From: a virus
DNA: 37,371 bases
Reading direction: 5' to 3' (one strand)
IMG/VR virus record: IMGVR_UViG_3300045988_009599
The notes beneath the pieces are model-generated. The model saw only the letters and a program-made list of their open reading frames with translations. It had not been told where the DNA came from and made no database searches. The number at the start of each line of letters is the position of its first letter. Within the stretch, counting starts at the first letter, position 1. A program made the translations under genes and the position numbers. This document shows, in pieces, positions 1 through 37,371 of the stretch.

Positions 1-119
1 CAATATGCTCATAATACGCCATGAGCTTGCGCTCCGGTCCCGGCCCGTCCTTATCGCACAAAAACGCCTTGGCCAGAGCGGCGTAAAACTCTGGGCGGTT
101 GAGTCCAAACTCTACGGCG
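1..119. repeat. Terminal direct repeat, copy 1 (identical to 37253-37371)
   Basis: caatatgctcataatacgccatgagc...ctctacggcg is read identically at both window ends. Confidence 0.95.
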
Positions 120-460
120 ACGGGGTAGTAGTCCGAGTACATCATGTTGAGCGTCACGCCCCACGCCCAGCGTGGGATCTCGTTTGGCTGAATGCCCATG
201 CTCTCGGCCACGGCCGTTGTCTGTTCCATCGTCCAGTGCGGGCCGGTCGTGCCGTCGGCGTTTTGCATGTGGGCTGCCCACTGCATCGCCGTTTCGCGAT
301 CAAATGCGGCCGTCTCCGGCTCGTCGTGGTGCCCGTGCAGCTTTTCGAGCCTGCAGATCGTCTTCGCGTACAGTCCGACTTCCTCCGCGCTGCCCAGCGT
401 CACGGGTTTCTCCATGGCCTCGTGCAGCTTTGTGTAAAGCTTTTCGATATATTCTTTCAT
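2..460 (-). CDS. Hypothetical cargo protein (about 155 aa) that wraps across the circle junction
   Basis: ATG at 458-460 follows AGGAGG. The frame stays open to the window start and continues in the terminal repeat to TAG at 37245-37247 (MKEYIEKLYTKLHEAMEKP...MAYYEHIAK). No family recognised. Confidence 0.7.
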   Translation of the reverse strand, partial: MKEYIEKLYTKLHEAMEKPVTLGSAEEVGLYAKTICRLEKLHGHHDEPETAAFDRETAMQWAAHMQNADGTTGPHWTMEQTTAVAESMGIQPNEIPRWAWGVTLNMMYSDYYPVAVEFGLNRPEFYAALAKAFLCDKDGPGPERKLMAYYEHI

Positions 461-464
461 CTCG

Positions 465-803
465 TCATGCCTCCTGGATATACCGGTAGAGTTTATCGAC
501 GTCGTTCTGGTCAAACCGCATATCGCCCAGCAGCGGGACGGATACGGTCAGCTTGTTTTCAAAGCGCGGCCTGGCCGCGTTGTAGAGCTTGTCGAAATCG
601 ATGTTCCCGGCGTCGTCAAAGATCTGCATCATCTTGACCGCCGGATTCTCGCGCAGCGCAAGGATCTTTTCGCGGCTGCCCTCCATGATGAGCGCCAGCA
701 TGATCCCGGCCCCGATGCCCTTGCCGCCCGGCAGGTGCGGGATGACCTCATTGTCTGCGTAGCGCATCGCTCCGCGCATGGCCTGATCTATCGTCACTGT
801 CAT
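465..803 (-). CDS. Hypothetical cargo protein, 112 aa
   Basis: ORF-track ORF with AAGGAGG upstream. Short hydrophobic segment GIGAGIMLALIM. Tightly packed with its neighbours. Confidence 0.65.
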   Translation of the reverse strand: MTVTIDQAMRGAMRYADNEVIPHLPGGKGIGAGIMLALIMEGSREKILALRENPAVKMMQIFDDAGNIDFDKLYNAARPRFENKLTVSVPLLGDMRFDQNDVDKLYRYIQEA

Positions 804-852
804 TGCAGATTTCCTCCTTTAAGGATGGGGCGGCTATTGCCGCCCCTTGCGT

Positions 853-1488
853 TTAGCCGTTGCAGCACCCGCCGCACTTCGGGATCGGGTTGTAGAGCGA
901 CTGCGCCGTGGTCGCGGTGCCCGTGGTGACGTCGGCGACCTGCTTGGGATAAAAGGTCGCGTTGACGTAGGTGACGATGGAGTTATCACCGCAGCAGCGG
1001 CGCTCGGCCTCCATCTTGACCGCATCAAGCGCTTCCTTGCGGACGGACTCGACGTCCTGCTTGACCAGCGCGAAGCTGTCCTCGGTGCGCTGGTTGTGGA
1101 CGGCCTGCTTGCACAGCGCCTCACGGACGTCCTTGAGCTGCCCGTCGATATAACCGTACATCTCCAGCATCTTGCCGTCGTTGTACGTGTTGGCCTTGAG
1201 CAGCGCGATCTCGCTGTCCTTCGCGGCCAGCTTCTGCTCCCGTTCAAGATCGTAGCGCGTGACCGGCATGTTCTCGCTGCACGTCGGCTCCTGCTGCCGT
1301 GCGGCGAGCATGGCGGCGACCGTCATGGCAGGCGTGACCGCCGCAGCGATGTCAGCGGCTGCCGGCTTGTTGTTCTGTCCGATGCCGCCCAGCAGATTGC
1401 CGAGCCCGCCGTTTGCCAGACCCAGCGCGGCGCCGCCGATGCCAAAGCCCAGCGCAGTCCCTGCGAGTCCCTTACTTGCGTATTCCAT
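853..1488 (-). CDS. Hypothetical glycine-zipper / coiled-coil protein with Cys-rich C-terminus, 211 aa
   Basis: GGAGG upstream of the ATG. N-terminus GLAGTALGFGIGGAALGLANGGLGNLLGG, helical middle region, C-terminus KCGGCCNG. Confidence 0.65.
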   Translation of the reverse strand: MEYASKGLAGTALGFGIGGAALGLANGGLGNLLGGIGQNNKPAAADIAAAVTPAMTVAAMLAARQQEPTCSENMPVTRYDLEREQKLAAKDSEIALLKANTYNDGKMLEMYGYIDGQLKDVREALCKQAVHNQRTEDSFALVKQDVESVRKEALDAVKMEAERRCCGDNSIVTYVNATFYPKQVADVTTGTATTAQSLYNPIPKCGGCCNG

Positions 1489-1585
1489 ATAAAATCCTCC
1501 GGTAAAAGTAAGTAAGCTGGCCAGCTCCTATCCTTAGTCTACCGTTTCCCCCCGCTCCGCTGGGGGACATTTGCGGGACGTCTGT

Positions 1586-1607
1586 GTACCATTTATGTAC
1601 CATTTAT
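1586..1607. repeat. Tandem 11-bp direct repeat gtaccatttat x2 in a divergent control region
   Basis: Read directly at 1586-1596 and 1597-1607. It lies between the cargo operon start (1488) and the plus-strand promoter (1631). Confidence 0.8.
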
Positions 1608-1630: not shown

Positions 1631-1659
1631 TTGACATTTACACGCATTGCGTGTATAAT
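1631..1659 (+). promoter_or_regulatory. Consensus sigma-70-type promoter with palindromic operator (cassette A)
   Basis: TTGACA (1631-1636), 17-nt spacer, TATAAT (1654-1659). An A/T-rich tract lies upstream. The perfect 15-bp palindrome ACACGCATTGCGTGT sits at 1640-1654. Confidence 0.8.
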
Positions 1660-1797
1660 AAAGCCATAAGATAAAGCAAGGCGAAAGCCGGGGAGGAAAT
1701 TAAAATGTACGAAATGAACAGAGATATGATGGATACCATGATTCGCGACTGGCTGGCAGACAATGCAGAAGAGATGGCCGATCTGGTCGTTGACTAC
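1631..1797. repeat. Direct repeat copy 1 (promoter + 5'UTR + first 31 codons); partner at 2287-2452
   Basis: Near-identical on reading: one 1-nt indel in the UTR and very few substitutions. Divergence begins after codon 31. Confidence 0.9.
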
Positions 1798-1902
1798 GAC
1801 AGCATCCGTTATGACGAGGATGAGTGGATTGCTGACGCGCACGACGACAACACCAGCTACACGCTCAAGGCTGACAATGATGGCTTCGTCCACATCTGCT
1901 GA
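1705..1902 (+). CDS. Small hyper-acidic protein, 65 aa (candidate anti-defence / DNA-mimic protein)
   Basis: GGGGAGG RBS. 19 D/E against 4 K/R. First gene behind the consensus promoter. Paralog of 2360-2566. Confidence 0.75.
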   Translation: MYEMNRDMMDTMIRDWLADNAEEMADLVVDYDSIRYDEDEWIADAHDDNTSYTLKADNDGFVHIC

Positions 1903-1916
1903 TAGGAGGAAGCCGC

Positions 1917-2255
1917 ATGAAGCTCACACCTACAACCCGCGCCGCGCTCTATGCCAAGGCCGGTGCGTACGCCAACCGCAATGTCTATATTTCAGATATG
2001 GCGCTATCAAGCATCTGGGGCGGTGCCGAATGCACCGAGAGCCCAGTGGAGCGTCTTGCACTGCTCGGCGCGATCTGGGACGGCGCGCATTGCACGATCC
2101 CGGAGCTGCTCAAAAAGCACGGTCTGACGCAGACCGGCTTTGCACAGTATTTTAATATTCCGCTCCGCACCGTGCAGGACTGGTGCGGCGGGCGAAGATC
2201 GTGCCCGCCGTATGTGGTCGCGATGGCAGCGGAGATTTTAAGCAAAAACGTGTAA
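1917..2255 (+). CDS. HTH DNA-binding protein, 112 aa (Aca-like candidate regulator)
   Basis: AGGAGG RBS. C-terminus GLTQTGFAQYFNIPLRTVQDWCGGRRSCPPYVVAMAAEIL looks like an XRE/Cro-type HTH and is paralogous to the C-terminus of 2557-3255. Confidence 0.75.
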   Translation: MKLTPTTRAALYAKAGAYANRNVYISDMALSSIWGGAECTESPVERLALLGAIWDGAHCTIPELLKKHGLTQTGFAQYFNIPLRTVQDWCGGRRSCPPYVVAMAAEILSKNV

Positions 2256-2286
2256 CAACAAATTTTGCAATTCCCCCAAAAACCCC

Positions 2287-2315
2287 TTGACATTTGCACG
2301 CATTGCGTGTATAAT
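2287..2315 (+). promoter_or_regulatory. Consensus sigma-70-type promoter with palindromic operator (cassette B)
   Basis: TTGACA (2287-2292), 17-nt spacer, TATAAT (2310-2315). Palindrome CACGCATTGCGTG at 2297-2309. Confidence 0.8.
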
Positions 2316-2452
2316 AAGCCATAAGATAAAGCAAGGCGAAAGCCGGGGAGGAAATTAAAATGTACGAAATGAACAGAGATATGATGGACACCATGATTCG
2401 CGACTGGCTGGCAGACAATGCAGAAGAGATGGCCGATCTGGTCGTTGACTAC
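2287..2452. repeat. Direct repeat copy 2 (partner of 1631-1797)
   Basis: See copy 1. Confidence 0.9.
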
Positions 2453-2566
2453 GGCAGCATCCGGTACGACGAAGACGAGGAAGAGTGGGTCGCCGACGCG
2501 CACGATGACAGCACCAGTTATACCCTTGTTGCCGATAGCGACGGAAGCATCCGCATTTGCTACTGA
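2360..2566 (+). CDS. Small hyper-acidic protein, 68 aa (paralog of 1705-1902)
   Basis: The first 31 residues are identical to the paralog and the C-terminal half has diverged. 20 D/E against 4 K/R. Confidence 0.75.
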   Translation: MYEMNRDMMDTMIRDWLADNAEEMADLVVDYGSIRYDEDEEEWVADAHDDSTSYTLVADSDGSIRICY

Positions 2567-3255
2567 AAATGTCGGATCGTAAACCTGATGTGCCACGCCG
2601 CACGATCGGATCTTCCGATCTGTGCGTGCGCTGCGGGAAAGAGTACATTGTAACTGGGCCCAGGCAGAAATATTGCCCTGGCTGTGCACAGCATCGTAAT
2701 CCCAACCGTAAAATAGGCGGCACTGGAATTTGCGTTAACTGCGGGAAGGAGTATATTATAACCTCCCCCGCGAAAATGCTGTGCCCGGATTGCGCGCCGA
2801 AATATAAGCCAAGACTCCACTCGGTCGCTGCCGACGCCATCGATGGAGCGGCCCACCGGCAGCTCGGGTCCGTTTCCATCTGCTTGCAGTGTGGCAAAGA
2901 GTATGTCGTGCTAAGCGGACGGCAGAAATATTGCCCTTTGTGCTCCGTTTCGATCTCAAGGAGATTGGGTCCACCGCGTCCGCATCCTAAAAAGCAAAAG
3001 CATCCAGATAAAAAGCGTCACACCACTGTGAGCGATTCGCTCTGCGAGCCTGCCCGTACATTGTTGGGGCTTCTCGACCGATACGGCATATCCCAGCGCC
3101 GATTTGCCGAGTATTTTGGCATCGATGTGACGCTCGTCAACAGGTGGTGTACCGGGACGCGCAAGTGCCCGGAGTATGTGGTCAATATGGCTGCAAAAAT
3201 TTTGTCCTTCTCGGCGCAGGAGCTGCAAGACGTCGAGACGGAAGATCATGATTAA
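2557..3255 (+). CDS. Triple zinc-ribbon + C-terminal HTH protein, 232 aa (start TTG 2557 or ATG 2569)
   Basis: Three repeats of C-x2-CGKEY...(Y/L)CP-x-C. C-terminal HTH GISQRRFAEYFGIDVTLVNRWCTGTRKCPEYVVNMAAKIL is paralogous to 1917-2255. Confidence 0.7.
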   Translation: MLLKMSDRKPDVPRRTIGSSDLCVRCGKEYIVTGPRQKYCPGCAQHRNPNRKIGGTGICVNCGKEYIITSPAKMLCPDCAPKYKPRLHSVAADAIDGAAHRQLGSVSICLQCGKEYVVLSGRQKYCPLCSVSISRRLGPPRPHPKKQKHPDKKRHTTVSDSLCEPARTLLGLLDRYGISQRRFAEYFGIDVTLVNRWCTGTRKCPEYVVNMAAKILSFSAQELQDVETEDHD

Positions 3256-3262
3256 AAAAGCA

Positions 3263-3289
3263 AGCCCGTGGAGTGATCCACGGGCTTTT
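3263..3289. terminator. Bidirectional rho-independent terminator
   Basis: Stem agcccgtgga / tccacgggct with loop gtga. A T-run follows on the plus strand and an A-run precedes it. Confidence 0.75.
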
Positions 3290-3539
3290 ACTCTGTATGC
3301 TGCCTCCCGGCGATGCGGCGGGCAATTGTGATGATGTGCGGCAGGCGGCGGGAGATGGTTTTGCGGTCGACGCCGATCTCGGCGGCGGCGTCCATCTGCG
3401 GGAGCCTGCGCACGATATAAAGCTTCACGATCTGCTGATCGATCTGATCCAGTATGCCCTCGTCAGTGATGTGCTCCCAGTCGCTGCGCGTGAGGTGTTC
3501 CAGCTCCTTCGGCAGAGCCAGCCGCGCAGTTATTTGCTG
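3288..3539 (-). pseudogene. Sigma-70 region-4-like HTH reading frame lacking a canonical start (possible decayed gene or non-canonical start)
   Basis: 83 sense codons run stop to stop (..LALPKELEHLTRSDWEHITDEGILDQIDQQIVKLYIVRRLPQMDAAAEIGVDRKTISRRLPHIITIARRIAGRQHTE). The first ATG/GTG/TTG leaves only 46 aa. GGGAG lies 9 nt upstream of an in-frame ATA. Confidence 0.35.
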
Positions 3540-3571: not shown

Positions 3572-4273
3572 TTATCTCATGGCAGCAGCCAGTTTTTTCA
3601 GGAGATCATCGCCGTACTTGTAATCGGCAAGATATTTGATCGTGTTGTCCGCAAGTCCGGCCTTTGCCTTGATGGTCTTCTTGGCGTCCTCGACGGCCTT
3701 GTCGACGGTTTTCGTGTTGTAGTCCACCCACGGGAGCTTGCCGTGCTTCTGCCATACGCGGCTGTTGTAGCCGCCCTTGACACCGATGTTGCCGACGCCA
3801 GTGATCTGCACGCCATTATCCCAGATGGGCGTACACTCAACGGCCAAGCCGTCTCCGATGTACATGCCCCAGTGTCCGGGCATCCACAGGCCTTCGCCTG
3901 GGACGAGTTTGTCCCAGCCGGACGCGGATACGTCCTGACACTTCGCGATCATGCCGTCTGCGGAGACGTCCGGGACGGCGTTTCCGGCGTAGCGTGCGCC
4001 GCCGTGGTATGCATTTTTGTTTCCGTTCCAGCCCCACAGGATCCCCTTTGTGAGATTCACGCAGTCAAAGCCAAAGTAGCCCTTCCCGATCAGCCCGCGG
4101 AATCTGGCCTGCTTTGCTGCGTCGTACCAGTCTGGGTATTGCTTGGCCTTCTCTGCGATGATCCCATCCGTGACCGGCGAGCCGAAGCAGCCCCACATGT
4201 ACACGGTTTTATAGTTCTTCGCGACTTCGATATGCCTTTTTACAAGCTCGGACGCTCTCATAACGTAACTCAT
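3572..4273 (-). CDS. Endolysin, NlpC/P60-like cysteine peptidase
   Basis: 233 aa. FGFDCVNLTKG (catalytic Cys context) and GHWGMYIGDGLAVE (His context). Lies directly downstream of the holin genes. Confidence 0.75.
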   Translation of the reverse strand: MSYVMRASELVKRHIEVAKNYKTVYMWGCFGSPVTDGIIAEKAKQYPDWYDAAKQARFRGLIGKGYFGFDCVNLTKGILWGWNGNKNAYHGGARYAGNAVPDVSADGMIAKCQDVSASGWDKLVPGEGLWMPGHWGMYIGDGLAVECTPIWDNGVQITGVGNIGVKGGYNSRVWQKHGKLPWVDYNTKTVDKAVEDAKKTIKAKAGLADNTIKYLADYKYGDDLLKKLAAAMR

Positions 4274-4578
4274 ACCCGCTCACTCCCGTACAGCTCGTGG
4301 TGCAGCTGCAGCACGGCGGCCTCGATCAATTTATCAATAACCTTGCTATCAAATGTGATCCCTTTTTCGGCCAAAAAGCTGAGAACATACGCCTTTTTCG
4401 CCGGGCCGTCCGTCGCGTCATAGAGCTGCTCCGCAGCCTTTACGCCGATCTCGACGTATGTTTTGATGGTTTGCAGCTTGTTGGCGTCGATCTTGGTTTT
4501 GAGCCATGGGATCAGAAACGCCGAAACGAGCGCGCTGATGAGCGCGATCACTGCTGAGATGATCTGTGTGTAGTCCAT
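4270..4578 (-). CDS. Holin, LL-H-like family
   Basis: 102 aa. N-terminal TM helix IISAVIALISALVSAFLIPWL followed by a helical tail. Overlaps the endolysin start by 4 nt. Confidence 0.7.
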   Translation of the reverse strand: MDYTQIISAVIALISALVSAFLIPWLKTKIDANKLQTIKTYVEIGVKAAEQLYDATDGPAKKAYVLSFLAEKGITFDSKVIDKLIEAAVLQLHHELYGSERV

Positions 4579-10648: not shown

Positions 10649-12725
10649 GGGTGATCGCCTCCTCCTGGTTGGTGTGGGATACGGTAAAGGAGTACCGCCG
10701 CATAAACTCATCGCTGTTGCTCTCCAGCGACGGAAGTGTGCCGATTGCCATGTTGCCGTAGTGATCTTTCAGGCAGACGAGCCGCCCGACGAGAGCTTCG
10801 AGCGCGAGCGCGCTGGCGCGCTGGCTGTGCGGCCATGCGCAAGCGACGGCGAGTGAGCGGTCGCGCTGCTCGCTGCGCTCCTCCACAGGGTAGGCCAGCC
10901 CGGCCAGATGGACCGTGCTGACGCCGGCCGAGAAGCTGACGCGGTTGGTGCGCAGCTGTGTCTCGGACAGGCACATGTCAAGCCAGACGCCGGTCGAGAG
11001 GTCGCAGATCGTGTTGCTCTCCGGCAGGACCTCGACGGTATCCGAATTGGACACGCCGTAGTTATCGCTGTCATCGTAGCAGCCGCGGACGCGGTAGGTA
11101 ACGGAGCCGATGCTCCGCTTGTCTGTGTACTCCTTAGCGTCTGTGCGGGCAATGGCCACGCCGTCCCGCTCGATCAGGTAAAAGTCATAGCTCCCGGCCG
11201 TCTGCCAGCTGAGTGCCGCTTCGCGCCCGGCAGAGACGGTCAGGGTGATCGCTTCGCCCTCGGTGTGGGAGATAGGCAGGGCGGCTGCGCTCCACTCCGA
11301 CCACATGCCGTACTGATTCTGTACGCGGACGCGGACCGTGTAGCTGCCGTCGGCCAAATAGACAGGCGAGCGCCATGCCTTGTCCGTGCCGTAGACCGTG
11401 CCGGACGCGTAGCCGTTGGACAGCGTCAGCTGATAGGCCTCCTGCTCCGACGTCTGCCAGGTGATGCGCGGGCGCGGGCCGGTGGACTGGATGACGATGG
11501 ACGGAGCGGACGGCGCGTTTATGGCGATAAACTCCGCCGCGTCCGACCACTCGGACGCTGTGCCGTCGGTGTTGTAGGTGCGCACGCGCCAGTATTTCGT
11601 GCCACTGGCAAAGGTGTTTGCCGGGACGTCGTAATACTGATCCGCGCCGGTAACGGTCGCGAGGGTATTCCACGTCGCGCCGTCGGCGGACCATTGCAGA
11701 TCTGCCTTGCTCTGCGGCGTGCCGGTTGAAATGATGTGCTGCCAGCTAAACCGATTGACGATCGTGGCGTCGATGACGATGCCGGAGGGAGAGACCGGCT
11801 TGCAGGATGGTGTGACGTCTGTCGTTGTGATCTCCTGCCATGCAGACGTTGTTGTCGTTCCGCTGTTCGCCGTCACCTTTACGCGCCACTCGATCGTCCC
11901 GGACGGGAATGTGTTTGCCGGGACTGTGCAAGAGGTCGTCGCGCCGGAGACGCTGACTGTGTTTGAGGTGCTCGCATTTTTTACGCGCCACTCAAAAACC
12001 GCTGACGTCTGTTTGATTTCCGCGAAGCAAGTCTGCGTAAGATCTGTGTCATCTGTACACGTCCACGTAAACGTGCTCTTTTGCGCCCTGTTTACAAAAG
12101 CACCTGCCGCCGGGGAAAAGTCACTTGCATTGATGCCCACATCGTCGTCCGAATACTCGCATTCCAGAAACGGTTTGTAAGACGATTTCACGCCGTAAAA
12201 AACCGCTTCGGACGCGCGTCCCGTTCCGCCAGCCGAAAAAGCAAATGCGAAGCCGTTGCGCAGGCCGCTCTCAAGATTCTTCTTTTTCGCCGCATCGTAA
12301 AGGGACATCGTGAATACTGCCTCGGCCTGCACAACTTGGTTGAGGGTATCCCAGCTTGCTGACCCAACGCCGTCTCCATTGCCATACAGTTTTGGCTGTG
12401 TCGCATACGTTGCCGCGCTTGTATCGAGCGGCTCTGCCAAGCCTTGCCCGTAAGCCGCTATGTATGCAGCTCCCCAACTGCCCAAAGTACCGGCTGTCGG
12501 CATGGCGTATATTACAAGCCTTACCTTTGTGATACGTTTGTACTTGTATGCTGCCGCAGGCTCGCCGAATTTCAGCAGGATATTATCCCAGCCGTCATAT
12601 GTTCCGTCATGGTTCGTAAACGGATCGACAAACAGCTTGTACTGCGTAAGATCTGAGTAGTTTGTGTTCGGGTGGGACTTGGAGACTGCGGTCGACCCGC
12701 TGGCCTGTACTGTAAAAGTCGCCAC
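10638..12725 (-). CDS. Distal tail protein (Dit-like) with a long N-terminal extension carrying FN3/Ig-like repeats, 695 aa
   Basis: Starts (GTG) directly after the tape-measure stop. Repeated W(R)V(K/R)...SEWS modules. The C-terminal roughly 130 aa resemble a siphovirus tail-family domain. Confidence 0.6.
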   Translation of the reverse strand: MATFTVQASGSTAVSKSHPNTNYSDLTQYKLFVDPFTNHDGTYDGWDNILLKFGEPAAAYKYKRITKVRLVIYAMPTAGTLGSWGAAYIAAYGQGLAEPLDTSAATYATQPKLYGNGDGVGSASWDTLNQVVQAEAVFTMSLYDAAKKKNLESGLRNGFAFAFSAGGTGRASEAVFYGVKSSYKPFLECEYSDDDVGINASDFSPAAGAFVNRAQKSTFTWTCTDDTDLTQTCFAEIKQTSAVFEWRVKNASTSNTVSVSGATTSCTVPANTFPSGTIEWRVKVTANSGTTTTSAWQEITTTDVTPSCKPVSPSGIVIDATIVNRFSWQHIISTGTPQSKADLQWSADGATWNTLATVTGADQYYDVPANTFASGTKYWRVRTYNTDGTASEWSDAAEFIAINAPSAPSIVIQSTGPRPRITWQTSEQEAYQLTLSNGYASGTVYGTDKAWRSPVYLADGSYTVRVRVQNQYGMWSEWSAAALPISHTEGEAITLTVSAGREAALSWQTAGSYDFYLIERDGVAIARTDAKEYTDKRSIGSVTYRVRGCYDDSDNYGVSNSDTVEVLPESNTICDLSTGVWLDMCLSETQLRTNRVSFSAGVSTVHLAGLAYPVEERSEQRDRSLAVACAWPHSQRASALALEALVGRLVCLKDHYGNMAIGTLPSLESNSDEFMRRYSFTVSHTNQEEAITLDP

Positions 12726-34423: not shown

Positions 34424-34915
34424 ATGTACTGTAACAAATGCGGTAAAGAGATCGACGACGAGGCTCTGATCTGCCCGCACTGCGGCTGCGGCACCTTGAA
34501 TTATATCCGCGATCAGGCAAAGGCGGAGGCCCGCGTGCAGGTGCAGGCCGCACCGGCGCGGAAAAAGCGCTCGACTGCTCTGCTGCTTTGCATTTTTCTT
34601 GGTGGCCTTGGGGCGCACCGGTTTTATGTAGGCAAGATCTGGACGGGTCTGCTCTGGCTTATCACGCTTGGCTTTTGTGGTATCGGCACATTGGTCGACT
34701 TCTGCCGGATCTATGATAACAAGTTCACAGACGACGCCGGGCGCCCGCTCTACGATGAGTACACGGATGGCATGACGCCTGAGGAATACGAGTCCGCCGT
34801 CGCTGGTCCCCGCAGAGTCAGGAAAGTTATCATCGTCATTGCCCTTGCGCTTTGCGCTGGCTGCTTCCTGTTCGTCCGCGTCATCCCCGGCCTCATGTAC
34901 GCGCTTGGTTTTTGA
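34424..34915 (+). CDS. Zinc-ribbon + TM2-domain membrane protein, 163 aa
   Basis: CNKCG...CPHCG. TM2-like LLLCIFLGGLGAHRFYVGKIWTGLLWLITLGFCGIGTLVDF. A C-terminal extra TM helix. Confidence 0.75.
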   Translation: MYCNKCGKEIDDEALICPHCGCGTLNYIRDQAKAEARVQVQAAPARKKRSTALLLCIFLGGLGAHRFYVGKIWTGLLWLITLGFCGIGTLVDFCRIYDNKFTDDAGRPLYDEYTDGMTPEEYESAVAGPRRVRKVIIVIALALCAGCFLFVRVIPGLMYALGF

Positions 34916-35566: not shown

Positions 35567-37156
35567 ATGAAATTTACATCTACCTGGAAAATCGCCGACC
35601 CGCTCTCGCAGTATATCATTTACCTTCGCAAGTCCCGGAAAGACATGGACGCCGAAGCCCTCGGCCAGACCGACACGCTCAAGCGGCACAGAGCCGCGCT
35701 TCTGTCTCTTGCCGAGAGCCGCGGTCTTAATATCGTTGAGATCTGTGAGGAGGTCGTGACCGGTGATTCCATCGCCGTCCGGCCGGAGGTGCAAAAGGTG
35801 CTACAGCTTGTGGAGACCGGCGCGTACGCAGGCGTCCTGGTCATGGAGGTCGAGCGTCTTGCCCGCGGCGACACAATCGACCAGGGCATCATTGCGCAGA
35901 CCTTTAAGTACTCCAACACCATGATCATCACGCCGAATAAGTCCTACGATCCAAACAATGATATGGACGAGGAGTACTTTGAGTTCGGACTTTTTATGTC
36001 CCGCCGCGAGTACAACACCATCAAGCGTCGCCTGACACGCGGCAAAGAGGCGTCCATCCGCGAGGGGAAATGGATCTCCGGCAAGACGCCCTTCGGCTGG
36101 CTGCGGGAGAAGATCCCGAACGATAAAGGCTACATGCTCGTCCCACATCCGGAGCAGGCCCCGATCCTGCGGCAGATCTACGACTGGTACACCGGCGATG
36201 GCTGCGTCCGTGTCGGCTCGTCTGCGATCGCCACGCGCCTGAATCGTCTCGGTGTCCAAACAAATACCGGCAGCCGCTGGACTGCCAGCGCCATCCTTGA
36301 GGTCCTGCGCAATCCGGCAAACGCTGGCTGGATCAAGAGCAAGGGGCGCCCGGAGATCAAGCATATCGTCGACGGCTCCGTCGTCGTCAGCCGCCCCCGC
36401 GCCAGAATTGAGGATCTGACGCTTCACAAGGGCCTGCACAACGGGCTTATCTCGCAGGAGCAGTTCGACCGGGCCGTTGCCCTGAGTTATTCCACAGCCA
36501 GCCCGCGCGGAAAGGGCGCATGGAAAACCGCGACCAGTCTTGCTGGCCTCGTGCGCTGTGACCAGTGCGGCCGCATCATGGTCCGCCGGGCGACATCCGG
36601 TGGCCGAAAAGACACATTTCTGTGCCCCTCGTATGGCTGCACCACCGTCAGCGCATGGTACGACGAGGTTGAGGCAGCTGTTCTCGATGCGCTCCGCGGT
36701 TGGTTGCATGAGTTGGAGGTCGGCGAAGCCGCTTCCGCGGATGACAGTTCTCTTCTCAGCGCCCTGTCCTCCGCCATTTCCGCCGATCAAAAGCAGCTTG
36801 CCAAACTGGAGGCGCAGGAAACCCGCGCCTACGAATTTGTCGAGACCGGCGTCTACACGCCTGAGGTTTTCCTCCAGCGCTCGCAGTCGCTGGCAGCCGA
36901 CAAGCTGGCTATCCTTTCGCGCATTGATGAGACCCAGCGTGCCATTGACGATATCGACCGTGCAAAGCAGGCGCGTGCCCGTCTCGCCCCTGCCGTCCGC
37001 CACGTGCTCGAAACCTACCCTCTCGCCGGATCTGTGCAGGAGCAGAACGATCTGCTGAAAACCGTCCTGCAAAAGATCGTCTACCACAAACAGTCCAAAT
37101 CCTACAGCAAAGCCGGCAGCGACATGCGCGTCACCCTGTACCCCCTCACAGATTGA
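35567..37156 (+). CDS. Large serine recombinase (phage integrase)
   Basis: 529 aa. N-terminal resolvase domain (YLRKSRKD catalytic Ser context, VMEVERLARG), recombinase domain, Cys4 zinc ribbon (CDQCG...CPSYGC), C-terminal coiled coil. Confidence 0.9.
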   Translation: MKFTSTWKIADPLSQYIIYLRKSRKDMDAEALGQTDTLKRHRAALLSLAESRGLNIVEICEEVVTGDSIAVRPEVQKVLQLVETGAYAGVLVMEVERLARGDTIDQGIIAQTFKYSNTMIITPNKSYDPNNDMDEEYFEFGLFMSRREYNTIKRRLTRGKEASIREGKWISGKTPFGWLREKIPNDKGYMLVPHPEQAPILRQIYDWYTGDGCVRVGSSAIATRLNRLGVQTNTGSRWTASAILEVLRNPANAGWIKSKGRPEIKHIVDGSVVVSRPRARIEDLTLHKGLHNGLISQEQFDRAVALSYSTASPRGKGAWKTATSLAGLVRCDQCGRIMVRRATSGGRKDTFLCPSYGCTTVSAWYDEVEAAVLDALRGWLHELEVGEAASADDSSLLSALSSAISADQKQLAKLEAQETRAYEFVETGVYTPEVFLQRSQSLAADKLAILSRIDETQRAIDDIDRAKQARARLAPAVRHVLETYPLAGSVQEQNDLLKTVLQKIVYHKQSKSYSKAGSDMRVTLYPLTD

Positions 37157-37183
37157 TCCCCCGCCTTCCAAACAAAAATCAAA

Positions 37184-37220
37184 AAACCCGTGTAATTGAG
37201 ATCCTCAATTACACGGGTTT
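37184..37220. terminator. Bidirectional terminator, perfect 17-bp-arm palindrome
   Basis: aaacccgtgtaattgag-atc-ctcaattacacgggttt. A long T-run follows on the minus strand. It lies between the convergent integrase and wrap-around cargo gene. Confidence 0.7.
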
Positions 37221-37244: not shown

Positions 37245-37371
37245 CTATTTTGCAATATGCTCATAATACGCCATGAGCTTGCGCTCCGGTCCCGGCCCGT
37301 CCTTATCGCACAAAAACGCCTTGGCCAGAGCGGCGTAAAACTCTGGGCGGTTGAGTCCAAACTCTACGGCG
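37245..37371 (-). CDS. 3' end of the wrap-around cargo CDS (same gene as 2-460)
   Basis: TAG at 37245-37247. 37253-37371 duplicates 1-119. Confidence 0.7.
   Translation of the reverse strand, partial: AVEFGLNRPEFYAALAKAFLCDKDGPGPERKLMAYYEHIAK
37253..37371. repeat. Terminal direct repeat, copy 2
   Basis: Identical to 1-119. Confidence 0.95.

What the first reader, a model, noticed from the sequence alone, without database searches (positions are those of the whole stretch)
2..1488. Autonomous three-gene cargo operon next to the integrase, with no recognisable families
Three minus-strand genes each have a strong GGAGG-type RBS and short intergenic gaps. Their own upstream control region (1489-1630) is divergent from the acr-like promoter, and a canonical terminator (37184-37220) follows them. 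They are separated from the late operon by the opposite-strand cassettes, so they form an independent transcription unit at the att/integrase-proximal end, where prophages usually carry morons such as defence or lysogenic-conversion genes. Gene 1 encodes a glycine-zipper N-terminus, a coiled-coil-like body and a CGGCCNG tail. Gene 2 is a 112-aa protein with a short hydrophobic segment. Gene 3 is a 155-aa soluble protein (..AMQWAAHMQNADGTTGPHWTMEQTT..). I could not assign a function to any of them.
Basis: partly seen in the sequence, partly recalled or inferred. Interest (0 to 1): 0.65.

Follow-up and report, generated by a model that had tools for sequence, protein, structure and literature searches.

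The report
Conserved phage membrane coiled-coil gene module
The three genes are real, but the first two, together with a small regulator gene 2 kb upstream, form a module of unknown function found in hundreds of gut phage lineages, so they are probably not prophage-specific cargo.

Summary
Three minus-strand genes (g1 853-1488, g2 465-803, g3 460 wrapping to 37245) have GGAGG ribosome-binding sites, are under purifying selection, and are followed by a strong terminator. The window is a circular 37,252-bp phage genome.

The "cargo trio" reading is only partly right.
- g1 and g2 are a tightly linked pair in 55 of 58 independent genome loci. g3 (Pfam DUF7841) follows in about 15. About 25 other loci carry an unrelated ~100-aa protein there, half-ferritin-like in several.
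- The g1 family has 439 clusters at 50% identity. It reaches 178-kb Bacteroides phage isolates.
- A small sigma-70-region-4-like gene (window 3288-3521) sits upstream of g1 in 43 of 58 loci. The anti-CRISPR-like cassettes are insertions between it and g1.
- The g1 promoter region has no -35 element. It has 11-bp phased direct repeats, a feature seen across the family.
- A GC hairpin between g1 and g2 is conserved as a structure.

g1 is predicted to have a hydrophobic glycine-zipper N-terminus, a 100-residue helix and an invariant cysteine-containing C-terminal motif. g2 has a fold with no match among solved structures.

Function is unproven. My best guess is a regulator-dependent, envelope-acting accessory of the lytic cycle. 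Superinfection exclusion and a virion fibre remain open.

The parts
853..1488 (-). g1: 211-aa protein. It has a glycine-zipper hydrophobic N-terminus (about residues 7-35) and an Ala-rich hydrophobic stretch (43-62). One predicted continuous helix spans residues 78-178. The C-terminal motif E-x3-R-x-C-x-D...Y-x-N-x2-F...YNP is invariant or nearly so, and the protein ends in a CGGCCNG tail.
   Evidence: ORF. Family of 3,298 proteins and 439 clusters at 50% identity. Invariant columns E160, R164, D168, Y174, N176, F179, P201. AlphaFold2 helix 78-178 with pLDDT above 90. Kyte-Doolittle hydropathy maxima of 1.3-1.7 in the N-terminal part in most of the 40 family members. No Pfam, PHROG, NCBIfam or PADLOC hit.
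465..803 (-). g2: 112-aa partner of g1, a small alpha/beta protein with a weakly hydrophobic helix at 26-50. It is the most constrained of the three genes.
   Evidence: Found within about 50 nt downstream of g1 in 68 of 71 loci. dN/dS 0.02-0.04. AlphaFold2 pLDDT 83, pTM 0.73. No PDB fold match at E <= 0.001. BFVD matches only uncharacterised phage proteins.
1..460 (-). g3, 5' part (codons 1-153): 155-aa soluble DUF7841 protein. The gene wraps across the circular junction.
   Evidence: Pfam PF25223, 6e-27. Full translation obtained after circularising. Present after g2 in only about 15 of 58 genome loci.
37245..37253 (-). g3, last two codons and the stop codon. Positions 37254-37371 repeat 1-118.
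   Evidence: Terminal 119-bp direct repeat. Stop codon TAG at 37245-37247.
37173..37220 (-). Intrinsic terminator hairpin plus T-run after g3. It lies in the 88-nt spacer before the convergent serine-integrase gene and could also be part of attP.
   Evidence: -32 kcal/mol, z -7. Conserved in L001-L010 and L072-L077. No integrated copy with this integrase was found.
827..846 (-). Intercistronic GC hairpin between g1 and g2 (GGGGCGGC-AAUA-GCCGCCCC). It is probably a leaky terminator or an mRNA stabiliser that makes g1 more abundant than g2.
   Evidence: z -3.75. A strong hairpin with a different sequence sits at the same place in 45 of 50 unique loci, mean z -3.9. Bacteroides phage DAC16 has one too.
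1489..1526 (-). g1 leader with RBS GGAGG (1496-1500) and the 12-bp palindrome AGCTGGCCAGCT (1515-1526). The palindrome could be a 5'-UTR stem or an operator.
   Evidence: A short GC palindrome about 25 nt before the ATG recurs in relatives: mean arm length 5.1 against 4.27 +/- 0.15 in shuffles.
1536..1541 (-). -10-like hexamer TAGACT, with no -35 element. Relatives have TG-n-TATAAT-type extended -10 elements at the same place.
1563..1606 (-). Four 11-bp phased direct repeats: TAAATGGTACA twice, then CAGACGTCCCG and CAAATGTCCCC. They cover roughly -34 to -77 and are the presumed binding sites of a regulator.
   Evidence: Tandem Repeats Finder, period 11. 4.3 copies in L019. Lag-11 autocorrelation z = 9.8 over 46 loci.
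3288..3521 (-). Small (77-aa) sigma-70-region-4-like HTH gene. It is the last gene of the holin-endolysin operon and has a CTG start. It is the presumed regulator of the g1 promoter.
   Evidence: Weak sigma70-ECF region-4 match, 1e-4, below the curated cut-off. Sigma70_r4, Sigma70_r4_2 and GerE hits in relatives. Found on the same strand upstream of g1 in 43 of 58 genome loci.
3262..3287 (-). Terminator that closes the lysis/HTH operon. It is bidirectional and also ends the + strand cassette.

Best explanation
The functional unit is a conserved phage module, not a prophage-specific trio.

What is shown:
- g1 and g2 are an obligate pair. The third position is replaceable: DUF7841 here, and in other loci an unrelated ~100-aa protein that is half-ferritin-like in several.
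- A small sigma-70-region-4-like HTH gene at the end of the lysis operon almost always lies upstream on the same strand.
- The g1 promoter region lacks a -35 element and carries 11-bp phased direct repeats.
- A GC hairpin separates g1 from g2.

What is inferred:
- The HTH protein binds the repeats and switches on the promoter once the late/lysis operon has been read.
- g1 is then made in large excess over g2 and g3, because of the strong RBS and the intercistronic hairpin.
- g1 inserts its glycine-zipper N-terminus into the cytoplasmic membrane, with the N-terminus inside.
- g1 oligomerises through its roughly 15-nm coiled coil and presents the invariant cysteine-containing C-terminal motif on the outside.
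- g2 is its stoichiometrically minor partner.

Most likely role: an envelope-acting accessory of the end of the lytic cycle. It could control or assist lysis and egress, or condition the envelope of the infected cell. This is analogous in architecture, but not homologous, to T4 T/RI/RIII or PBSX XhlA.
For: - Pair linkage: 68 of 71 loci, 55 of 58 independent.
- Breadth: 439 clusters at 50% identity. Hosts are labelled Oscillospiraceae, Christensenellaceae and Bacteroidaceae. A clear g1 homologue (HMM E = 2e-22) lies next to tail-fibre genes in the 178-kb Bacteroides phage isolates DAC16/19/20/22/23.
- Position: always co-directional with, and at the 3' end of, the late region. The most frequent recognisable upstream neighbours are Amidase_2, Phage_holin_4_1, collagen-type fibres, PG_binding_1 and Sigma70_r4. 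In the window the order is holin, endolysin, HTH, terminator.
- Regulation: no sigma-70 consensus upstream of g1, 11-bp repeats, and the HTH gene linked in 43 of 58 loci even when cassettes are inserted in between.
- Abundance logic: the intercistronic hairpin is conserved as a structure with different sequences.
- g1 architecture.
- No compositional sign of recent import: 0.598 for the trio region against a 0.578 window mean.
- No defence-family hit.
Against: - There are no expression data of any kind, so timing is inferred from gene order and promoter anatomy only.
- Many relatives have a good extended -10 element (TGnTATAAT) right after a terminator. That could be constitutive, and would then be active in lysogens.
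- The HTH could be a repressor acting on the palindrome rather than an activator.
- The N-terminal hydropathy is borderline for a transmembrane helix (1.3-1.7), and AlphaFold2 confidence there is low.
- These phages already have a canonical holin and endolysin.
- There is no sequence or fold similarity to any known lysis protein.
- The promoter-gene-terminator layout next to att is the classic moron layout.
- The lifestyle of the DAC phages was not checked here.
Confidence: 0.38

Rival explanations
1. Prophage-expressed envelope protein. g1 is made in the lysogen from its own promoter, coats the membrane or wall zone, and blocks adsorption or DNA entry by incoming phages. This would be superinfection exclusion or lysogenic conversion, with g2 as a helper. 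It is.
For: - The unit is autonomous, with a promoter and a terminator, and sits next to the integrase/att.
- Extended -10 promoters in many relatives could be constitutive.
- The N-terminus looks like a membrane anchor and the protein has a long stalk.
- The neighbourhood is a hot spot for anti-defence and accessory cassettes.
- Virulent phages also carry exclusion genes (own knowledge: T4 imm and sp).
Against: - Known exclusion proteins tend to be lineage-specific (own knowledge). This family keeps an invariant C-terminal motif across phages of hosts labelled Firmicutes and Bacteroidetes.
- The window's promoter has no -35 element and only a weak -10.
- The orientation is always that of the late operon, not of the lysogeny module.
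- There is no homology to Sie, Ltp or Cor families.
Confidence: 0.25
2. Virion fibre. g1 is a trimeric coiled-coil fibre (a fibritin-like, head-fibre-like or whisker-like decoration) with a small C-terminal folding or trimerisation domain, and g2 is its assembly chaperone.
For: - A continuous 100-residue helix.
- A strongly conserved C-terminal domain of about 50 aa.
- High-expression signals and a g1 > g2 stoichiometry device, as is common for structural genes (own knowledge).
- It lies next to tail-fibre genes in DAC16 and downstream of collagen/DUF6273 fibre genes in relatives.
Against: - A hydrophobic glycine-zipper N-terminus is unusual for a fibre.
- Both ends are conserved across unrelated virion types. 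BFVD hits are labelled Siphoviridae, Podoviridae and Myoviridae.
- It is separated from the structural operon by the lysis genes, a terminator and a dedicated regulator.
- There is no match to any structural PHROG.
Confidence: 0.15
3. Defence or toxin-antitoxin cargo. g1 is a membrane-disrupting abortive-infection toxin held in check by g2 and/or g3.
For: - The glycine-zipper motif is typical of pore formers (own knowledge).
- It is a small two-gene core.
- It sits in a cassette hot spot.
Against: - No PADLOC hit.
- It is found in phage genomes in all 58 loci and at a fixed position.
- It is present in large phage isolates.
- The partner downstream of a leaky terminator would be under-produced relative to the toxin. 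That is the reverse of typical toxin-antitoxin stoichiometry (own knowledge).
Confidence: 0.07

Closest known systems
T4 lysis-inhibition set: class III holin T (218 aa), antiholin RI, co-antiholin RIII
   Same: Similar size and layout (own knowledge of T4). One protein of about 210 aa has a single N-terminal hydrophobic segment and a large cysteine-containing C-terminal domain. With it come a small partner with a weakly hydrophobic Gly/Ala-rich segment and a small soluble third protein.
   Different: No sequence or fold similarity was found: no holin family in Pfam or PHROGs, and no relevant PDB hit by sequence. g1's body is a 100-residue helix, whereas T's periplasmic domain is globular (own knowledge). 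The phage already has a Phage_holin_6_1 holin next to its endolysin.
Lambda-type morons (autonomous promoter-gene-terminator units in prophages)
   Same: Own control region, own terminator, and a position at the att-proximal end of the late region.
   Different: g1 and g2 are not sporadic. They are conserved across hundreds of lineages at a fixed position with a linked regulator. Base composition is not deviant. Only the third gene behaves like a swappable unit.
Two-component spanins (Rz/Rz1)
   Same: An N-terminal membrane anchor, a long coiled coil and functionally suggestive cysteines, encoded beside the lysis genes.
   Different: g2 has no signal peptide or lipobox. Most hosts are labelled as monoderm Clostridia, which have no outer membrane to fuse with. 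No homology was found.
ArpU/RinA-type small phage late-gene activators
   Same: The upstream 72-92-aa proteins carry a sigma-70-region-4-like HTH. One relative gives a weak ArpU match of 1e-3, below the curated cut-off. They sit next to a -35-less promoter.
   Different: They are about half the size of ArpU/RinA. They sit at the end of the lysis operon, not before the terminase genes. DNA binding and activation are untested.
Pfam DUF7841 (PF25223)
   Same: g3 is a clear member (94.5 bits).
   Different: The family has no known function, and no paper in the searched library mentions it. It is only one of at least two alternatives at the third position.

Membership tests
Pfam DUF7841 (g3) | Score above the Pfam gathering threshold over the domain | tested here: met
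   94.5 bits against a cut-off of 25.2, residues 38-151. All 120 listed homologues carry PF25223.
Moron (prophage cargo unit) | Own promoter and terminator flanking the unit | tested here: met
   Terminator 3262-3287 upstream, control region 1489-1606, terminator 37173-37220.
Moron (prophage cargo unit) | Sporadic presence: absent from otherwise related phages, present in unrelated ones | tested here: not met
   g1 and g2 are present at the same position in all fetched relatives and in 55 of 58 diverse genome loci. Only g3 is sporadic.
Moron (prophage cargo unit) | Base composition different from the rest of the phage | tested here: not met
   GC is 0.598 for 1-1000, against a window mean of 0.578 and a range of 0.49-0.64.
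Moron (prophage cargo unit) | Expressed from the repressed prophage | not testable with these tools
   No transcriptome data. The promoter has no sigma-70 consensus in the window, but relatives have extended -10 elements.
Holin / antiholin | At least one transmembrane domain | tested here: inconclusive
   Best 19-residue Kyte-Doolittle windows are 1.3-1.7 in the g1 N-terminus and 1.19 in g2. AlphaFold2 confidence is low there.
Holin / antiholin | Membership of a described holin family | tested here: not met
   No Pfam or PHROG holin hit for g1 or g2. The window's holin is 4270-4578.
Two-component spanin | Second component is an outer-membrane lipoprotein with a lipobox | tested here: not met
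   The g2 sequence starts MTVTIDQAMRG and has no signal peptide or lipobox Cys. The g2 model is a compact alpha/beta domain.
Known anti-phage defence systems (PADLOC) | Any component matching a defence-system model | tested here: not met
   No hit for g1, g2 or g3 at E <= 0.1.
Fibritin-like virion fibre | Long trimeric coiled coil with a C-terminal folding domain, present in virions | tested here: inconclusive
   A long helix is predicted. The oligomeric state, the C-terminal fold (pLDDT 40-65) and virion presence could not be tested.
Sigma-70 region 4 / ArpU-type regulators (upstream HTH) | Score above the curated family cut-off | tested here: not met
   The window protein scores 21.8 bits against a cut-off of 42.9 for TIGR02937. 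The ArpU match is 19.3 against 43.1. Sigma70_r4 and GerE hits at E <= 0.001 occur in relatives. This is resemblance only.

The most novel reading that the evidence does not exclude
A widespread and so far undescribed "very late" phage regulon. A miniature sigma-region-4-like activator, made as the last product of the lysis operon, binds 11-bp phased repeats. It drives massive synthesis of a membrane-anchored, cysteine-tipped coiled-coil protein and its partner. Together these form a new class of lysis or egress effector that works in both monoderm and diderm hosts.
Probability: 0.2. Interest if true: 0.8.

Novelty: new variant of a known kind. Interest (0 to 1): 0.55.

Why it matters
g1 and g2 have no entry in Pfam, PHROGs, NCBIfam or PADLOC. 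g2 has no match among solved folds. Yet the pair occupies a fixed slot in hundreds of gut phage lineages, with a dedicated regulator gene, an unusual phased-repeat promoter and a conserved stoichiometry-setting hairpin.

That pattern points to an important, unstudied step of phage biology in dominant gut Clostridia and Bacteroides. It also gives a practical annotation rule: the HTH...g1 interval is an insertion hot spot where anti-CRISPR-like and other accessory cassettes accumulate. The Bacteroides DAC phages offer a culturable system in which to test the function.

Tried and rejected
- Sequence searches of g1, g2 and g3, singly and as profiles, against PDB chains gave only chance-level hits. 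Examples are IF1 at 2e-3 for the coiled coil, an "ECF sigma negative effector" at 1e-2 driven by a D-x-NGNID-x-D loop, and MurE at 0.2.
- Foldseek of the g2 model against PDB found nothing at E <= 0.001. Against BFVD it found only uncharacterised phage proteins.
- Foldseek of the g1 model is uninformative because the model is a single long helix.
- Rfam found no family in the window.
- PADLOC and NCBIfam found nothing for the trio.
- A homology link between DUF7841 and the half-ferritin-like third genes was rejected (hhalign probability 0.3%).
- DAC16_159 and DAC16_160 as g2 and g3 homologues: the alignments fall in the expected register but are not significant (E 0.027 and 0.46).
- Locating attP of the window's own integrase failed. 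All 16 contigs with this integrase type that could be checked for adjacency keep g3, hairpin and int adjacent. The exact-pattern scan of viral contigs found nothing.
- Literature searches for DUF7841 and for glycine-zipper phage proteins gave nothing relevant.
Full report
**1. What is in the window**

The window is a circular 37,252-bp unit. Its first 119 bases are repeated at its end. It is a temperate tailed-phage genome. The relevant features are:
- A large serine recombinase gene at 35567-37156 on the + strand, with Resolvase, Recombinase and Zn_ribbon_recom domains in identical relatives.
- A Phage_holin_6_1 holin at 4270-4578 and an endolysin at 3572-4273, both on the minus strand.

The three genes of the finding are real.
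- g1 is 853-1488.
- g2 is 465-803.
- g3 starts at 460 and wraps through the junction to 37245.

Each gene has a GGAGG 7-9 nt upstream of its ATG. The gaps between genes are 49 nt and 4 nt.

Against relatives that are 88-97% identical, dN/dS is 0.14-0.28 for g1, 0.02-0.04 for g2 and 0.14-0.16 for g3. All three are therefore coding and constrained.

The hairpin plus T-run at 37173-37220 is a strong intrinsic terminator in the direction of the trio (-32 kcal/mol, z = -7).

**2. Which part is the conserved unit**

The exact g1 protein occurs on many human-gut metagenome contigs. There it always lies next to the same integrase, while the opposite-strand genes upstream of it differ between contigs: AcrVA2-like, HTH, sigma-like and others.

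A word-indexed search found 3,298 g1 relatives. An exhaustive search found 439 clusters at 50% identity.

A scan of one genome per species returned 58 loci. Most are from genomes labelled Oscillospiraceae, Christensenellaceae or other Clostridia, and a few are labelled Bacteroidaceae or Alistipes.

In those loci, plus 13 close relatives:
- A g2 homologue follows g1 within about 50 nt in 68 of 71 cases. Of the three exceptions, L071 ends at the contig edge within g1.
- A DUF7841 gene is detected in only 28 of the 71, which is about 15 of the 58 independent loci.
- In about 25 other loci the third gene is an unrelated helical protein of about 100 aa. Several of these resemble half of a ferritin/rubrerythrin bundle. 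Three of ten tested hit PF02915, two of them above its cut-off, and the profile's top PDB hits are consistently ferritins, at weak E-values of 0.008-0.1.
- These third genes are not detectably related to DUF7841.

So g1-g2 is the core, and the third slot is replaceable.

**3. A linked regulator and a conserved control region**

In most loci the gene just upstream of g1 encodes a 72-92-aa protein with a sigma-70-region-4/LuxR-type HTH.

The window has this gene too, at 3288-3521 on the minus strand. ORF lists miss it because it starts with CTG. Relatives have ATG, GTG or TTG at that codon. It is the last gene of the holin-endolysin operon and is followed by a terminator at 3262-3287.

Such a gene lies upstream of g1 on the same strand in 43 of 58 genome loci. 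In 34 of them it lies within 900 nt. In the rest it lies 1.0-2.4 kb away, and opposite-strand genes sit in the interval in the loci inspected.

The window is of this second type. Two near-duplicate cassettes lie between the HTH gene and g1. Each has a perfect TTGACA-17-TATAAT promoter (1631-1659 and 2287-2315), a small acidic protein and an HTH protein. The true "cargo" site is therefore the HTH...g1 interval.

Upstream of g1 the scan finds no sigma-70 consensus on the minus strand. Instead there are:
- A -10-like TAGACT at 1536-1541.
- Four 11-bp phased direct repeats at 1563-1606 (Tandem Repeats Finder period 11; 4.3 copies of the same motif in L019).
- A 12-bp GC palindrome at 1515-1526.

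Over 46 diverse loci, the region from -140 to -45 shows a sharp autocorrelation peak at lag 11 (z = 9.8) and a smaller one at lag 22. The repeat sequence itself differs between lineages. A GC palindrome about 25 nt before the start codon also recurs.

Many AT-richer relatives have a terminator T-tract running straight into a TG-n-TATAAT extended -10 element.

I infer that the small HTH protein binds the repeats. I cannot tell whether it activates or represses.

**4. A stoichiometry device**

Between g1 and g2 lies a GC hairpin (827-846). A strong hairpin occupies the same place in 45 of 50 unique loci. The stem sequences are unrelated and the mean z-score is -3.9. Bacteroides phage DAC16 has one too.

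This is the usual way to make the upstream product much more abundant than the downstream ones. The inference is that g1 acts stoichiometrically.

**5. The proteins**

g1 has these features:
- A hydrophobic glycine-zipper N-terminus. The best Kyte-Doolittle windows are 1.3-1.7 in most of the 40 family members, which is borderline for a membrane helix.
- A variable Gly/Asn/aromatic linker.
- A single predicted helix at residues 78-178, with pLDDT above 90.
- A C-terminal block with invariant E160, R164, D168, Y174, N176, F179 and P201 and nearly invariant C166, ending in a Cys-rich tail.

g2 gives a confident model (pLDDT 83, pTM 0.73). That model has no counterpart in the PDB. In BFVD it matches only uncharacterised phage proteins.

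g3 is DUF7841. No paper in the searched library mentions that family.

None of the three matches PHROGs, NCBIfam, PADLOC or PDB sequences in a meaningful way.

**6. Beyond prophages**

A clear g1 homologue (family HMM E = 2e-22) is DAC16_158 of the 178-kb Bacteroides thetaiotaomicron phages DAC16/19/20/22/23, which were isolated from sewage.
- It is flanked by a terminator and by the intercistronic hairpin.
- It is followed by two small genes that echo g2 and g3 only faintly and not significantly.
- Next comes a tail-fibre-like protein.

I did not verify the lifestyle of these phages.

In the Clostridia loci the recognisable upstream neighbours are mainly endolysins, holins, collagen-type fibres and sigma-r4 proteins. 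In other loci the upstream neighbour is a giant ORF. Giant ART-PolyVal/MuF_C proteins also occur further upstream in close relatives.

The trio region has ordinary base composition.

**7. Attachment site**

In L011-L013 a related prophage, whose g1 is 88% identical, ends just after g3. The next host gene is a 48-aa N-terminal fragment of the Mn-catalase gene cotJC, preceded by a cotJA-cotJB-type gene. That prophage therefore interrupts a spore-coat gene.

L019 has a 22-bp-arm palindrome right after g3. It shares its half-site with the L011 junction. In that lineage attP therefore abuts g3.

For the window's own integrase type, all 16 contigs that could be checked for adjacency keep g3, hairpin and int adjacent. 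Its attP is therefore not located. It probably lies in the 88-nt spacer, and the "terminator" may double as part of it.

**8. Interpretation**

The reading as autonomous prophage cargo is only partly supported.
- Supported: the unit is autonomous and lies next to att.
- Not supported: its core is a widely conserved module with a fixed position and a linked regulator, not a sporadic moron, and nothing supports a defence role.

I favour a regulator-dependent, abundant, membrane-anchored coiled-coil protein acting on the cell envelope at the end of the lytic cycle (confidence about 0.38).

The rivals are:
- A prophage-expressed exclusion protein (0.25).
- A virion fibre with its chaperone (0.15).
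- A toxin-antitoxin or defence system (0.07).

All functional statements are inference. The anatomy, the linkage and the regulatory architecture are shown.

Noticed in passing
window 1-119 and 37253-37371: The window is a complete circular genome of 37,252 bp with a 119-bp assembly overlap. g3 spans the junction.
   Followed up: yes
window 1631-3255 (+ strand): Two near-duplicate cassettes. Each has a perfect TTGACA-17-TATAAT promoter (1631-1659, 2287-2315), a 65- or 68-aa acidic protein (near-identical paralogues) and an HTH protein of 112 aa or 232 aa, the larger with zinc ribbons. The layout looks like anti-CRISPR/Aca. Relatives carry AcrVA2-like or other genes at this site.
   Followed up: partly
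window 3288-3521 (-): An unlisted 77-aa sigma-70-region-4-like gene with a CTG start codon. Relatives use ATG, GTG or TTG at the same codon. The RBS lies about 20 nt upstream, which is unusually far.
   Followed up: yes
L011 11459-12076; L019 about 11303-11350: A related prophage is inserted inside the spore-coat Mn-catalase gene cotJC, after about codon 32. L019 carries the matching palindromic attP (22-bp arms, central GG) directly after g3. This recalls sporulation-gene intervening elements such as skin and SPbeta (own knowledge). A C. difficile paper notes that prophage phi027 lies adjacent to a cotJC-like gene (PMC11222575).
   Followed up: partly
L021, L026, L031, L032, L034 and others, gene after g2: In about 25 loci the third gene is a protein of about 100 aa. 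Several resemble half of a ferritin/rubrerythrin bundle, and some keep an E...ExxH motif. This would be an odd cargo for phages of strict anaerobes.
   Followed up: partly
L006 1-617, L012 1-3262, L022 2598-9572 and others: Relatives encode giant ORFs of 1,650-3,090 aa. The two with Pfam data carry ART-PolyVal or MuF_C domains (L006, L012). In other loci (L017, L022, L024, L026) a giant ORF lies close upstream of the HTH/g1 module. The window phage has no such gene.
   Followed up: no
L001 14079-14774; L005 13826-14317 (window 34424-34915 +): The lysogeny-side operon next to the integrase carries a DnaJ-domain protein in some relatives. In the window lineage it carries a TM2/zinc-ribbon membrane protein.
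   Followed up: no
L050 8275-9417: A reverse transcriptase gene (RVT_1) lies just upstream of the module in a sheep-colon Clostridia phage. It may belong to a diversity-generating retroelement near the fibre genes.
   Followed up: no
L024 8734-9635; L026 8073-8801; L015 9024-9533: The HTH...g1 interval holds different opposite-strand inserts in different phages. They are a two-gene cassette of 125 and 175 aa, a 242-aa protein, and a 169-aa protein, none of them identified here. This supports an insertion hot spot.
   Followed up: no
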